Shown: positions 32,067 to 35,935, numbered from the stretch's first letter. The stretch is 64,000 nt of DNA from Escherichia coli (GCF_050920415.1 NZ_CP169309.1); one strand, 5' to 3'. Notes: generated from the sequence alone by a model not told the origin. Translations and numbers: made by a program.

Positions 32067-32792
32067 TTATTCCGTGATTAAAGTCCCTTCTTTTTCACCC
32101 ATTACCACACGGCGCAGCGCACCCGGTTTGTTCATGTTGAAAACACGAATCGGTAATTTATGGTCACGAGCCAGCGTGAAGGCCGCCAGGTCCATGACTT
32201 TCAGCTCTTTTTCCAGCACTTCGCTGTAAGTCAGTTGCTCGTACATGGTTGCGGTTGGATCTTTCGCCGGATCAGCGGTAAACACGCCGTCAACTTTGGT
32301 TGCTTTCAGCACCACATCAGCTTCAATTTCGATACCACGCAGGCAAGCTGCTGAGTCGGTGGTAAAGAACGGGTTACCTGTACCGGCGGAGAGGATCACC
32401 ACACGGTTGTTGCGCAACAAGCTGATAGCTTCTGCCCAGCTGTAGCTGTCGCACACGCCATTCAATGGAATAGCGGACATCAGACGAGCGTTCACATAGG
32501 CGCGGTGCAGTGCATCACGCATTGCCAGGCCGTTCATTACGGTCGCCAGCATTCCCATGTGGTCGCCCACAACGCGGTTCATACCCGCTTTCGCCAGACC
32601 AGCGCCACGGAACAGGTTACCCCCACCAATCACCACACCAACCTGAATACCCAGTTCAACCAGTTCTTTGATTTCCTGAGCCATGCGATCCAGTATGCTT
32701 GCATCAATACCGAAGCCTTCCGTGCCCTGCAGAGCTTCGCCACTCAACTTAAGCAGAATGCGTTTATAGACGGGTTTTGCATTGGTAGCCAT
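32067..32792 (-). CDS. pyrH: Uridylate kinase
   Basis: 241-aa [24 protein letters not shown].... Confidence 0.97.
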
Positions 32793-32899
32793 GTTTCTTT
32801 CCTGAGACTGTCAACGATTGAAATGAATTAATACCGGCGACATTGTACGTCGCTTTTCAGCGCAGCCCCATAAGGGTTAGCTGAATTTACAAGATGGGC

Positions 32900-32926
32900 G
32901 CAAAAAGAAGCCGCCCTCAGGCGGCT
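32900..32926 (-). terminator. Rho-independent terminator downstream of tsf
   Basis: Minus-strand AGCCGCC-TGAG-GGCGGCT hairpin followed by TCTTTTTG. Confidence 0.8.
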
Positions 32927-32938
32927 CCTTTTCGATAA

Positions 32939-33790
32939 TTAAGACTGCTTGGACATCGCAGCAACTTCTGCTGCAAAGTCAGTCTCAACTTTCTCGATGC
33001 CTTCACCTACTTCGAAGCGGATGAAGCCAGTCACTTCAGCGTTATGCTCTTTCAGCAGCTGACCAACAGTTTTGCTTGGTTCCATAACGAACGGCTGACC
33101 GGTCAGAGAAACTTCGCCGGTGAATTTCTTCATGCGGCCTTCAACCATTTTCTCTGCGATTTCTTTCGGCTTACCAGACTGCATCGCGATATCCAGCTGA
33201 ACCTGGTATTCTTTCTCTACCACTTCAGCGGAAACATCTTCCGGTTTGATGAATTCTGGTTTGCTTGCAGCAACGTGCATAGCGATGTGTTTAACCAGCT
33301 CTTCGTCAGCGCCTTTAGCAGCAACCAGAACGCCGATACGCGCACCGTGCTGATAAGAACCCAGAACGTCGCCTTCCAGCGCAGCAACGCGGCGAATGTT
33401 GATGTTTTCACCAATTTTCGCTACCAGCGCAACACGTTCTTCTTCGAACTGTGCTTTCAGAACTTCAACGTCAGTGATTTTGCCAGCAACAGCTGCGTCC
33501 AGAACTTTGTCTGCGAACGCCTGGAAACCAGCGTCTTTTGCAACGAAGTCAGTCTGGCAGTTAACTTCCAGAATGATGCCGTAGTTGCCGTCGATTTTGG
33601 TTTTGATCACGCCGTCAGCAGCAACGTTGCCTGCTTTTTTCGCTGCTTTGATAGCACCGGACTTACGCATGTTTTCGATTGCCAGCTCGATGTCGCCGTT
33701 AGCTTCAGTCAGTGCTTTTTTGCAATCCATCATGCCTGCGCCAGTACGCTCACGCAGCTCTTTTACCAGGGATGCGGTAATTTCAGCCAT
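32939..33790 (-). CDS. tsf: Elongation factor Ts
   Basis: 283-aa [30 protein letters not shown].... Confidence 0.98.
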
Positions 33791-33842
33791 TCTAAAATCC
33801 TCGGAGATGTGATCTGCCCGGCATTAAACCGCACAGATATAA

Positions 33843-33873
33843 AAGTGAAAAAGGGGGCCATATGCAGGCCCCC
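33843..33873 (-). terminator. Intrinsic terminator or attenuator in the rpsB-tsf spacer, ~50 nt upstream of tsf
   Basis: Minus-strand GGGGGCC-TGCATAT-GGCCCCC perfect 7-bp GC stem followed by TTTTTCACTTTT. Confidence 0.8.
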
Positions 33874-34047
33874 TAACCAAACGTGTACTACCTGGTCTAT
33901 AAGGGCTCTCCCCCTTCATATTTCGCGCCGCAGATGCGTTGTCTTCGCTCGCTCATCCCGGTCACTTACTGATGTAAGCTCCCGGGAATTCTCGAGCTTG
34001 CCGCCTTTCTGCAACTCGAACTATTTTGGGGGAGTTATCAAGCCTTA

Positions 34048-34995
<948 letters not shown>

Positions 34996-35140
34996 TCAGA
35001 CGATGAATTTTCTATTATAGAAAACGTTCAGTGGCACGTTTGGCGAAATTCAGAATGATTCTCAATTTGCCCGGGTGTGATACCATTGACGACACTTACA
35101 TATATATTGTCGGTATCACCGACGCTGATGGACAGAATTA

Positions 35141-35935
35141 ATGGCTATCTCAATCAAGACCCCAGAAGATATCGAAAAAATGCGCGTCGCTGGCCGACTG
35201 GCTGCCGAAGTGCTGGAAATGATCGAACCGTATGTTAAACCGGGCGTCAGCACCGGCGAGCTGGATCGCATCTGTAATGATTACATTGTTAATGAACAAC
35301 ACGCGGTTTCTGCCTGCCTCGGCTATCACGGCTATCCGAAATCCGTTTGCATCTCTATTAATGAAGTGGTGTGCCACGGTATCCCGGACGACGCCAAGCT
35401 GCTGAAAGATGGCGATATCGTTAACATTGATGTCACCGTAATCAAAGATGGTTTCCACGGCGACACCTCGAAAATGTTTATCGTCGGTAAGCCGACCATC
35501 ATGGGCGAACGTCTGTGCCGCGTAACGCAAGAGAGTCTTTACCTGGCGCTACGCATGGTAAAACCGGGCATTAATCTGCGCGAAATCGGCGCGGCGATTC
35601 AGAAATTTGTCGAAGCAGAAGGCTTCTCCGTCGTTCGTGAATATTGCGGACACGGTATTGGTCGCGGCTTCCATGAAGAACCGCAGGTGCTGCATTATGA
35701 CTCCCGTGAAACCAACGTCGTGCTGAAGCCGGGAATGACCTTCACCATCGAGCCAATGGTCAACGCGGGTAAAAAAGAGATCCGCACCATGAAAGATGGC
35801 TGGACGGTAAAAACCAAAGATCGCAGCTTGTCTGCACAATATGAGCATACTATTGTGGTGACTGATAACGGCTGCGAAATTCTGACGTTACGCAAGGATG
35901 ACACCATCCCGGCGATAATCTCGCACGACGAATAA
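35141..35935 (+). CDS. map: Methionine aminopeptidase
   Basis: 264-aa ORF MAISIKTPEDIEKMRVAGRLAAEVLEMIEPYVKPG.... Confidence 0.97.
   Translation: MAISIKTPEDIEKMRVAGRLAAEVLEMIEPYVKPGVSTGELDRICNDYIVNEQHAVSACLGYHGYPKSVCISINEVVCHGIPDDAKLLKDGDIVNIDVTVIKDGFHGDTSKMFIVGKPTIMGERLCRVTQESLYLALRMVKPGINLREIGAAIQKFVEAEGFSVVREYCGHGIGRGFHEEPQVLHYDSRETNVVLKPGMTFTIEPMVNAGKKEIRTMKDGWTVKTKDRSLSAQYEHTIVVTDNGCEILTLRKDDTIPAIISHDE

What the first reader, a model, noticed from the sequence alone, without database searches (positions are those of the whole stretch)
33843..33873. Strong intrinsic terminator inside the rpsB-tsf operon, ~50 nt upstream of tsf
A perfect 7-bp GC stem (GGGGGCC/GGCCCCC) followed by a U-tract lies between rpsB and tsf. 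The 257-nt spacer has no obvious promoter hexamers for tsf that I can see. This implies that tsf expression depends on regulated read-through (attenuation) of this terminator, which would decouple S2 and EF-Ts stoichiometry. Combined with the structured region at 33975-33998, the spacer may be a regulatory RNA platform.
Basis: partly seen in the sequence, partly recalled or inferred. Interest (0 to 1): 0.3.

Follow-up and report, generated by a model that had tools for sequence, protein, structure and literature searches.

The report
Known leaky terminator between rpsB and tsf
The hairpin is real and is the already described partial transcription terminator ("attenuator") between the E. coli ribosomal protein S2 gene and the elongation factor Ts gene; it is conserved across enterobacteria, and nothing shows that read-through is regulated.

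Summary
The window is E. coli. rpsB (34773..34048) and tsf (33790..32939) lie on the minus strand, separated by 257 nt. The hairpin is at 33874..33852: AGGGGGCC-UGCAUAU-GGCCCCCU, followed by UUUUCACUUUU. Its ΔG is -18.5 kcal/mol. Hairpins of this class occur 9 times in the window against 0.3 in shuffles.

Published Term-seq and SMRT-Cappable-seq both place an RNA 3' end at MG1655 190,800, which is window 33847, the C after the five U. The literature already calls this the attenuator in front of tsf, read through by about one third of transcripts from the single rpsB promoter. The feature is therefore already known.

New here:
- All 82 Enterobacterales spacers examined carry the hairpin, with co-varying G/C-run lengths and free loops.
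- Rfam's CssrA sRNA model ends on this hairpin.
- A second conserved hairpin sits just before the tsf Shine-Dalgarno sequence.

Regulated read-through is not supported. No riboswitch family matched. The terminator fold dominates at equilibrium (P≈0.98). A ribosome-dependent switch model failed in 62 of 67 sequences. Minor tsf-containing transcripts starting inside the spacer are reported, so dependence on read-through is not absolute.

The parts
34048..34773 (-). rpsB (ribosomal protein S2) coding sequence; stop codon TAA at 34050..34048
   Evidence: ORF list. The spacer is 99.6-100% identical to E. coli genomes in which the flanking genes are annotated rpsB and tsf.
33909..34041 (-). ERIC/IRU repeat copy in the first half of the spacer, inserted in the loop of the stop-codon hairpin.
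   Evidence: In Nissle 1917 this segment is replaced by 10 nt, giving a 134-nt spacer. It is missing from 1,330 of 5,424 E. coli genomes. The 136-nt segment has a median of 11 copies per E. coli genome. It folds as a long imperfect palindrome. It matches the ERIC2 primer at 19 of 22 positions; the primer sequence was recalled from memory.
33898..33905 (-). CCCTTATA, the 3' strand of the conserved stop-codon hairpin (P1). It pairs with TAATAAGG at 34050..34043.
   Evidence: This helix is paired in 92% of cells across 68 Enterobacterales sequences, but the columns are nearly invariant, so there is no covariation signal.
33876..33896 (-). Small conserved hairpin P2 (ACCAGG...TTTGGT) abutting the terminator
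   Evidence: Alignment of 68 spacers. 80% of cells are paired and 3 pairs show changes on both sides. The Pantoea/Erwinia lineage uses CAGAU...AUCUG instead.
33852..33874 (-). Terminator (attenuator) stem-loop AGGGGGCC-UGCAUAU-GGCCCCCU
   Evidence: It is present in 5,424 of 5,426 E. coli genomes. It is present in all 82 loci examined across Enterobacterales.
33841..33851 (-). U-rich tail UUUUCACUUUU. The mapped RNA 3' end is at 33847 (MG1655 190,800), the C after the five U (the first U being the stem's closing base at 33852).
   Evidence: Term-seq 3' end at 190,800, with three entries in the table (PMC7815308 supplement 1). SMRT-Cappable-seq TTS at 190,800 from TSS 189,712 in M9 and rich medium (PMC6131387 supplement 3).
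33853..33962 (-). Match to Rfam RF02798 CssrA (Shigella sRNA A). It covers the right half of ERIC, the unique spacer sequence and the terminator stem.
   Evidence: 136.6 bits against a gathering score of 93, covering model positions 1-111. The family's ends are nominal: the 3' end comes from a terminator prediction and the 5' end from a ~110-nt Northern band.
33812..33838 (-). Second conserved hairpin AUCUGUGCGG-UUUAAU-GCCGGGCAGAU between the terminator and the tsf Shine-Dalgarno sequence (GAGGA, 33802..33798)
   Evidence: RNAalifold consensus on 27 Enterobacteriaceae sequences, with 3 pairs showing compensatory changes. Other lineages have a different hairpin at the same place.
32939..33790 (-). 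tsf (EF-Ts) coding sequence
32909..32926 (-). Operon-end terminator after tsf (AGCCGCCUGAGGGCGGCU followed by a U-rich tail)
   Evidence: SMRT-Cappable-seq TTS at 191,745 lies next to the known terminator centred at 191,729.
34801..34887 (-). rpsB leader, matching the t44/tff RNA family (the S2 autoregulatory 5' UTR)
   Evidence: Rfam RF00127, 83.5 bits against a gathering score of 44. tff is annotated in MG1655.

Best explanation
This is the intercistronic intrinsic (Rho-independent) terminator of the rpsB-tsf operon, known in the literature as the attenuator in front of tsf. RNA polymerase starting at the single strong rpsB promoter transcribes rpsB and the spacer. When the G+C-rich hairpin forms next to the U-tract, a fraction of polymerases release a monocistronic rpsB mRNA ending ...GGCCCCCUUUUUC. 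The remaining polymerases read through into tsf, and partly on into pyrH-frr. The element acts as a fixed, constitutive divider that sets tsf mRNA to a fraction of rpsB mRNA. The hairpin left at the 3' end should also protect the rpsB message from 3' exonucleases.

Shown: the sequence anatomy, the in vivo 3' ends at the U-tract, and conservation across the order. From the literature: the single promoter and roughly one third read-through. Inferred: that release is true termination by polymerase alone, that the efficiency is constitutive, and the stabilising role.
For: - Anatomy: 8-bp stem with 7 G-C pairs, a 7-nt loop and a UUUUUC...UUUU tail on the sense strand. dG is -18.5 kcal/mol.
- Chance: this class of hairpin occurs 9 times in the window against 0.3 in shuffles.
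- In vivo 3' end at exactly MG1655 190,800 (window 33847), found by Term-seq and by SMRT-Cappable-seq on transcripts capped at the rpsB TSS 189,712. In M9, 232 reads end there and 906 pass. In rich medium, 63 end there and 852 pass.
- Nanopore work describes the tff-rpsB-tsf unit as terminated stepwise.
- Le Derout et al. 2010, citing Aseev et al. [quoted passage not shown] A 2024 review figure marks attenuators ('att') in its map of r-protein operons.
- Conservation within E. coli: 5,424 of 5,426 genomes.
- Conservation across the order: all 82 spacers from 80 Enterobacterales species plus two E. coli strains. Loops vary freely. G-run and C-run lengths are equal in 57 of 66 unique sequences (Spearman 0.79). 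dG ranges from -13.8 to -22. Morganella has GGGAGCC/GGCUCCC, a double change.
- The terminator fold has probability 0.98 in the spacer RNA, with or without ERIC.
Against: - Read-through estimates disagree. The literature gives about one third. SMRT-Cappable-seq gives roughly 80-93%. That library is size-selected at 1 kb, which disfavours the 1,089-nt terminated species.
- 3'-end mapping cannot separate termination from exonucleolytic trimming back to a stable hairpin.
- Outside the Enterobacteriaceae the U-tract is short (for example CCCCCUUUGCUUAUC), so efficiency there may be low.
- Column-wise covariation is not significant because the stem is almost invariant.
- I could not read the primary papers (An et al. 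1981; Aseev et al. 2008).
Confidence: 0.85

Rival explanations
1. Regulated attenuation. Read-through is switched by an alternative anti-terminator fold that responds to a signal, such as rpsB translation or free S2. This would make the spacer a regulatory RNA platform coupling EF-Ts supply to ribosome synthesis.
For: - About 50 nt between the rpsB stop codon and the hairpin are unusually conserved across the order (TAATAAGG...GAGCCCTTATTAACCAGGTA...TTGGTTA).
- The CCCUUAU segment can pair either with AUAAGG, which overlaps the stop codon, or with the terminator's 5' arm.
- In Klebsiella oxytoca the alternative is a 10-bp helix, and it is the predicted fold.
- In the nascent RNA before the 3' arm is made, the G-run is predicted to pair upstream with mean probability 0.86.
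- S2 overproduction lowers the bicistronic mRNA.
- The SMRT-Cappable-seq termination fraction differs between M9 (about 20%) and rich medium (about 7%).
Against: - Masking the stop-codon segment changes the predicted fold in only 5 of 67 sequences.
- Capture of the G-run is nearly as frequent with shuffled upstream sequence (0.74).
- In E. coli the alternative fold is 12-13 kcal/mol less stable, and the terminator has P = 0.98.
- No riboswitch or leader family matches the spacer.
- The columns are invariant, so the alternative helix cannot be tested by covariation.
- The review attributes S2's effect on tsf to lost transcription-translation coupling, not to this hairpin.
- The difference between media is confounded by size selection.
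Confidence: 0.1
2. The 3' end is made by processing, not termination. Polymerase reads through essentially always, and the 190,800 end arises when 3' exonucleases trim cleaved transcripts back to a stable hairpin that mainly serves as an mRNA stabiliser.
For: - Term-seq and long-read 3' ends cannot distinguish the two origins.
- SMRT-Cappable-seq shows mostly read-through.
- In several lineages the U-tract is poor, yet the hairpin is kept. That pattern fits a stabiliser.
Against: - In E. coli and other Enterobacteriaceae the hairpin is followed directly by 5-8 U.
- The mapped end lies 5-6 nt past the stem, the canonical release position.
- The literature treats it as a terminator/attenuator.
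Confidence: 0.07
3. The hairpin is chiefly the terminator of an independent small-RNA gene (CssrA) with its own promoter inside the spacer.
For: - Rfam RF02798 matches at 136.6 bits and ends on the stem.
- A ~110-nt band was seen on a Northern blot in Shigella flexneri.
- SMRT-Cappable-seq lists a capped 5' end at 190,705, which is 96 nt upstream of the 3' end.
- Hfq RIL-seq chimeras join OxyS to rpsB.tsf.IGT.
Against: - The 5' half of the family lies in an ERIC copy that 25% of E. coli and most other genera lack, while the hairpin is universal.
- CssrA's ends were not mapped.
- I found no sigma-70-like hexamers upstream of 190,705 by reading the sequence.
- Over a thousand reads from the rpsB TSS reach this site, so its main traffic is operon transcription.
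- The short RNA is more simply a by-product: a terminated or processed 3' fragment.
Confidence: 0.04

Closest known systems
The rpsB-tsf intercistronic attenuator of E. coli K-12 (An et al. 1981; Aseev et al. 2008, as cited by Le Derout et al. 2010, PMC2834685)
   Same: It is the same locus. The spacer is 99.6% identical to MG1655, differing at 1 base that lies outside the hairpin. It has the same position in front of tsf and the same described behaviour: monocistronic rpsB transcripts end here and a fraction read through.
   Different: Nothing differs in the element itself. This strain carries C where K-12 has T at one ERIC position.
Other internal partial terminators of translation-gene operons, such as the rpsO-pnp intercistronic terminator hairpin and the rplKAJL-rpoBC attenuator (from general knowledge; the rpsO hairpin is mentioned)
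   Same: Each is a G+C-rich hairpin plus U-tract between cistrons that splits one promoter's output into a short abundant message and a longer, rarer one.
   Different: In rpsO-pnp the downstream gene has its own promoter and an RNase III site. Here only minor internal 5' ends are reported, and no processing site has been established.
Classical leader attenuators (trp, his, pyrBI) and riboswitch terminators
   Same: A terminator hairpin lies upstream of the controlled gene, and an upstream segment (CCCUUAU) could in principle pair with either of two partners.
   Different: There is no leader peptide and no aptamer family hit. The predicted alternative fold is not dependent on masking the stop-codon segment and is barely above the shuffled controls.
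Rfam RF02798 CssrA (Shigella flexneri sRNA; Peng et al. 2011, PMC3071730)
   Same: Full-length match above the gathering score, with the model's 3' end on this terminator stem.
   Different: The family's boundaries are nominal. The paper's table lists the neighbours as map/rpsB, not rpsB/tsf. The model is half ERIC repeat.
ERIC / IRU repeats (for the upstream half of the spacer)
   Same: A ~130-nt imperfect palindrome, multi-copy, intergenic and transcribed.
   Different: It is not part of the terminator. Its presence is polymorphic.

Membership tests
Intrinsic (Rho-independent) terminator | G+C-rich stem-loop on the transcribed strand | tested here: met
   8 bp with 7 G-C pairs and a 7-nt loop; dG -18.5 kcal/mol.
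Intrinsic (Rho-independent) terminator | U-tract immediately 3' of the stem | tested here: met
   UUUUU (the first U pairs with the stem's closing A), then CACUUUU. At least 5 T in the first 8 nt in 60 of 66 unique orthologous sequences.
Intrinsic (Rho-independent) terminator | RNA 3' ends in vivo within or at the end of the U-tract | tested here: met
   Published tables read here give 190,800 by Term-seq and by SMRT-Cappable-seq. That position is window 33847.
Intrinsic (Rho-independent) terminator | Release by RNA polymerase alone in vitro, independent of Rho | not testable with these tools
   This needs in vitro transcription. The primary papers were not available.
Regulated attenuator / riboswitch | A recognisable sensor (leader peptide, aptamer, or protein-binding leader family) | tested here: not met
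   An Rfam E-value scan of 32500-35500 gives only CssrA, t44 (upstream of rpsB) and a weak V_AS5 hit on ERIC. I noticed no leader-peptide ORF on the sense strand of the spacer in the >=40-aa ORF list, but shorter ORFs were not examined.
Regulated attenuator / riboswitch | Mutually exclusive anti-terminator helix whose formation depends on the signal | tested here: inconclusive
   An alternative CCCUU:AGGGG pairing exists and is strong in Klebsiella. It is predicted both with and without masking of the stop-codon segment, and only 5 of 67 sequences switch. It is close to the shuffled controls (0.86 against 0.74).
Regulated attenuator / riboswitch | Condition-dependent termination efficiency | tested here: inconclusive
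   About 20% in M9 against about 7% in rich medium by SMRT-Cappable-seq. The result is confounded by the 1-kb size selection and by an apparent column swap in one sheet.
Rfam RF02798 CssrA | Covariance-model score above the gathering threshold | tested here: met
   136.6 bits against 93, covering model positions 1-111.
Rfam RF02798 CssrA | Independent sRNA gene with its own transcription start | tested here: inconclusive
   The authors only predicted independent starts, and the 5' end was calculated from the Northern band size. A minor capped 5' end is listed at 190,705. No consensus promoter was seen.
ERIC / IRU repeat (upstream half of the spacer) | Multi-copy ~127-bp imperfect palindrome in intergenic transcribed DNA | tested here: met
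   Median of 11 places per E. coli genome. Long palindromic fold. Presence/absence polymorphism with clean boundaries. ERIC-like copies occur at the same site in 8 other species.
ERIC / IRU repeat (upstream half of the spacer) | Match to the published ERIC consensus | tested here: inconclusive
   Only the ERIC2 primer sequence, recalled from memory, was tested: 19 of 22 positions, with 0 matches in shuffles. The full consensus was not available to me.

The most novel reading that the evidence does not exclude
The terminator may be one part of a three-hairpin module conserved across the order: a stop-codon hairpin, a small P2 hairpin and the terminator. On this reading the module does more than divide transcription. 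One possibility is that a competing CCCUU:AGGGG helix tunes read-through to rpsB translation. The other is that the released 3' fragment of about 75-110 nt (the 'CssrA' region) is an Hfq-associated, spacer-derived regulatory RNA or sponge, as the OxyS-rpsB.tsf.IGT chimeras hint. ERIC insertions in the first hairpin's loop would then modulate it between strains.
Probability: 0.12. Interest if true: 0.5.

Novelty: already known. Interest (0 to 1): 0.12.

Why it matters
[quoted passage not shown] This has been textbook-level knowledge for E. coli since the 1980s, so the finding adds no new biology.

This check contributes three things. It joins sequence, Term-seq and long-read data at single-base resolution. 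It shows that the hairpin is kept in every one of 80 Enterobacterales species sampled. It also shows that the neighbouring 'structure' is a mobile ERIC repeat that a quarter of E. coli strains lack.

If the conserved flanking hairpins turned out to tune read-through or to yield an Hfq-bound RNA, that would be a modest new layer of control over translation-factor supply.

Tried and rejected
1. Ribosome-dependent switch. I masked the first 13 nt from the stop codon and folded the nascent RNA without the 3' arm. The G-run paired upstream in both states (0.86 against 0.94), and only 5 of 67 sequences switched. Rejected as unsupported.

2. Specific anti-terminator. Shuffling the upstream sequence still gave 0.74 capture of the G-run. 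The effect is largely generic.

3. Column covariation for the three-hairpin model. 88% of cells are paired, but the score is not distinguishable from shuffles (92 of 500) because the columns are nearly invariant.

4. Bidirectional terminator. On the plus strand the stem is followed by TAACCAAACG, which is not T-rich. Rejected.

5. Hairpin as part of the ERIC repeat. Rejected, because the hairpin lies in the 118 nt shared by ERIC-free strains.

6. Cloning artefact. The run CTCGAGAATTCCCGGG looks like a polylinker but is identical in MG1655. Rejected.

7. A sigma-70 promoter between the hairpin and tsf. By eye there is only TTTTCA-17-TTTAAT, and it is not supported by the reported 5' ends (190,440, 190,705, 190,794). 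The scan tool found nothing, but it also misses the rpsB promoter.

8. Primary papers (Aseev 2008, An 1981) and the supplements of Dar & Sorek 2018 and Melamed 2016 were not held.

9. A search for papers on factor-dependent read-through at this site found nothing relevant.

Full report
**What is in the sequence.** The window is Escherichia coli. The 257-nt spacer is 100% identical to many E. coli chromosomes and 99.6% identical to K-12 MG1655. In MG1655 the flanking genes are annotated rpsB (S2) and tsf (EF-Ts), with tff/t44 upstream and pyrH downstream. Both genes are on the minus strand: rpsB at 34773..34048 and tsf at 33790..32939. Read in the direction of transcription, the spacer ends with ...GUUUGGUU-AGGGGGCC-UGCAUAU-GGCCCCCU-UUUUCACUUUUAUAU.... 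The stem occupies 33874..33867 and 33859..33852. It has 7 G-C pairs plus a closing A-U pair, and it is followed directly by a U-rich tail.

**Is it more than chance?** The 43-nt segment folds at -18.5 kcal/mol, z = -2.9 against its own shuffles. I scanned for a perfect stem of at least 7 bp with at least 6 G-C pairs, a loop of 3-8 nt, and at least 5 T in the next 8 nt. This finds 9 distinct sites in the window against 0.3 +/- 0.6 in dinucleotide shuffles. This hairpin is one of the two with the most G-C pairs (7). Another site is the operon-end terminator after tsf at 32926..32909.

**Direct evidence that RNA ends here.** The conversion between coordinate systems is MG1655 = 190,857 + (33,790 - window).
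- Adams et al. 2021 (PMC7815308, supplementary file 1) list a 3' end at 190,800 on the plus strand. It has three entries, and the flanking sequence shown matches this hairpin.
- Yan et al. 2018 (PMC6131387, Supplementary Data 1) list a transcript end at 190,800 for capped transcripts starting at the rpsB/tff TSS 189,712, in both M9 and rich medium.
- Position 190,800 is window 33847, the C after the five U, 5-6 nt past the stem. That is the canonical release position.
- A nanopore study describes the tff-rpsB-tsf unit as terminated in a stepwise manner.

**It is already described.** Le Derout et al. 2010 (PMC2834685), citing Aseev et al. 2008, state that rpsB and rpsB-tsf mRNAs come from a single rpsB promoter. 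[quoted passage not shown] I could not obtain Aseev 2008 or An et al. 1981.

The long-read counts give much more read-through:
- M9: 232 reads end at the site, 906 pass, and 42 end within 50 nt downstream.
- Rich medium: 63 reads end at the site and 852 pass.
- In the rich-medium sheet the 'passing' and 'within 50 bp' columns must be swapped. 732 reads from the same TSS reach the tsf terminator, which is impossible if only 16 passed.
- That library was size-selected at about 1 kb, so the 1,089-nt terminated species is under-counted.

The true efficiency therefore lies somewhere between these estimates.

**Conservation.** The hairpin is present in 5,424 of 5,426 complete E. coli genomes. A scan of one genome per species with the S2 protein returned 80 loci across the Enterobacterales. 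The genera include Citrobacter, Enterobacter, Klebsiella, Serratia, Yersinia, Dickeya, Pectobacterium, Photorhabdus, Xenorhabdus, Providencia, Proteus, Morganella, Pantoea, Erwinia, Hafnia and Edwardsiella.
- All 80 loci, plus K-12 and Nissle, carry a GGGG(G)CC-loop-GGCCCC(C) hairpin in the rpsB-tsf spacer. 77 match the strict motif and 5 are near-variants.
- Loops vary freely in sequence and length.
- The G-run and C-run lengths are equal in 57 of 66 unique sequences (Spearman 0.79).
- dG ranges from -13.8 to -22 kcal/mol.
- Morganella has GGGAGCC/GGCUCCC, a change on both sides of the stem.
- The tail is U-rich in Enterobacteriaceae (UUUUUCACUUUU) but shorter elsewhere (for example UUUGCUUAUC). 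This suggests lower efficiency or a mainly stabilising role in those lineages.
- Classical column covariation is not significant because the stem is nearly invariant.
- The species are related, so these counts are not independent events.

**The rest of the spacer.**
- In Nissle 1917 this segment is replaced by 10 nt, and the spacer is 134 nt.
- 1,330 of 5,424 E. coli genomes match only the 118 nt nearest tsf.
- The 136-nt segment occurs at a median of 11 places per E. coli genome.
- It matches the ERIC2 primer at 19 of 22 positions; I recalled the primer sequence from memory.
- ERIC-like copies sit at the same spot in eight other species, and one of them is inverted.

The core spacer, without ERIC, is strikingly conserved. 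It begins with TAATAAGG, which contains the rpsB stop codon and pairs with CCCTTATTA around a small GCTC...GAGC hairpin. Next comes AACCAGG...TTGGTT, and then the terminator. Downstream, a second hairpin (33838..33812) sits just before the tsf Shine-Dalgarno sequence. It shows compensatory changes within Enterobacteriaceae, and other lineages have a different hairpin at the same place.

**Is read-through regulated?** I tested this claim in several ways.
- Rfam finds no riboswitch or leader in the spacer. The only hits are CssrA, t44 upstream of rpsB, and a weak sub-threshold hit on ERIC.
- At equilibrium the terminator stem has probability 0.98 in E. coli, with or without ERIC. The best fold with the 3' arm held unpaired, in which the 5' arm pairs upstream instead, is 12-13 kcal/mol worse.
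- In Klebsiella oxytoca a 10-bp CCCUUAUUUA:UAAAUAGGGG helix competes with the terminator. This suggested a trp-like 1:2 / 2:3 / 3:4 scheme, in which a ribosome at the rpsB stop codon would free segment 2.
- I tested that scheme on 67 unique spacers, folded without the 3' arm. The terminator's G-run pairs upstream whether or not the stop-codon segment is masked (0.86 against 0.94), and only 5 sequences switch.
- Shuffling the upstream sequence still gives 0.74.

So a competing nascent helix may help explain why a strong-looking terminator is leaky, but I found no evidence for a signal-dependent switch. A 2024 review attributes the fall of bicistronic mRNA under S2 repression to lost transcription-translation coupling.

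**Is tsf wholly dependent on read-through?** Mostly, according to the literature. However, SMRT-Cappable-seq lists minor capped 5' ends at 190,440, 190,705 and 190,794 for tsf-containing transcripts. I saw no convincing sigma-70 hexamers at those positions. The consensus scan found no minus-strand promoter at all, including the known rpsB promoter, so its negative result carries little weight.

**The CssrA match.** Rfam RF02798 matches 33962..33853 at 136.6 bits against a gathering score of 93. Peng et al. 2011 saw a ~110-nt band on a Northern blot in Shigella flexneri. They set the 3' end from a terminator prediction and calculated the 5' end from the band size. Their table names the neighbours as map/rpsB, which does not fit where the model lands. 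A 96-nt RNA from the 190,705 5' end to 190,800 would be compatible with the band. So would a processed 3' fragment of rpsB mRNA. Hfq RIL-seq in nitrogen-starved E. coli reports OxyS-rpsB.tsf.IGT chimeras. Half of the family is ERIC, which many strains lack, so I treat the short RNA as a by-product of the terminator rather than the reason for it.

**Verdict.** The element is the known rpsB-tsf attenuator: a constitutive, partial intrinsic terminator, conserved throughout the Enterobacterales. Novelty: already known. Interest is low. The residual novel possibility is that the conserved flanking hairpins tune read-through or yield an Hfq-bound RNA, and I put that at about 0.12.

Noticed in passing
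window 33909-34041 (-); loci L005, L009, L010, L012, L040, L043, L064, L078: The ERIC repeat sits in the loop of the hairpin that contains the rpsB stop codon. It is absent from 1,330 of 5,424 E. coli genomes. ERIC-like copies (71-82% identical) occupy the same spot in Citrobacter, Entomohabitans, Serratia, Pantoea and Erwinia, once in inverted orientation. This suggests a recurrent insertion site.
   Followed up: partly
window 33812-33838 (-): A second hairpin lies immediately 5' of the tsf Shine-Dalgarno sequence. It is conserved in Enterobacteriaceae, with 3 pairs showing compensatory changes. Serratia, Dickeya and Pectobacterium have a different hairpin (UAUCUC...GAGAUA) at the same place. 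Its function is unknown; it could stabilise the tsf 5' region or shape its translation.
   Followed up: partly
window 33876-33905 and 34043-34050 (-): The roughly 50 nt between the rpsB stop codon and the terminator (TAATAAGG...GAGCCCTTATTAACCAGGTA...TTGGTTA) is conserved in primary sequence across the whole order. That is more than a plain terminator would seem to need. No explanation was established.
   Followed up: partly
window 33981-33996 (-): CTCGAGAATTCCCGGG (adjacent XhoI, EcoRI and SmaI sites) looks like a polylinker. It is native ERIC sequence, identical in MG1655.
   Followed up: yes
window 33853-33962 (-): Peng et al. 2011 list cssrA as flanked by map and rpsB. The Rfam family built from it matches the rpsB-tsf spacer, and the family's ends are nominal rather than mapped.
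   Followed up: partly
rpsB-tsf spacer (MG1655 'rpsB.tsf.IGT'): Hfq RIL-seq in nitrogen-starved E. coli reports OxyS-rpsB.tsf.IGT chimeras, with 37-64 reads per replicate in five replicates and 6 in one, across two conditions (PMC10954441, supplement 5). I did not check for complementarity between the two RNAs.
   Followed up: no
window 33912-34035 (-): There is a weak sub-threshold hit of Rfam RF02818 (Vibrio RNA AS5; 24.3 bits, E = 0.046) on the ERIC copy. This hints that the Vibrio family is ERIC-related.
   Followed up: no
window 34801-34887 (-): The t44/tff RNA family matches the rpsB leader (83.5 bits). Term-seq also lists a 3' end at MG1655 189,839, inside the leader.
   Followed up: no
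PMC6131387 Supplementary Data 1, Rich_TTS sheet: For the row 189712-190800, the 'passing-through' (16) and 'within 50 bp' (852) columns appear swapped, because 732 reads from the same TSS reach the tsf terminator. Several other forward-strand rows look the same.
   Followed up: partly
E. coli E2348/69 rpsB and tsf (PMC8550237, supplement 4): In two differential-expression tables rpsB and tsf respond differently. In one, log2FC is +0.34 (not significant) against -0.71 (padj 5e-4). In the other, it is -1.0 (padj 0.03) against +0.18 (not significant). I did not identify which comparisons these tables represent.
   Followed up: no
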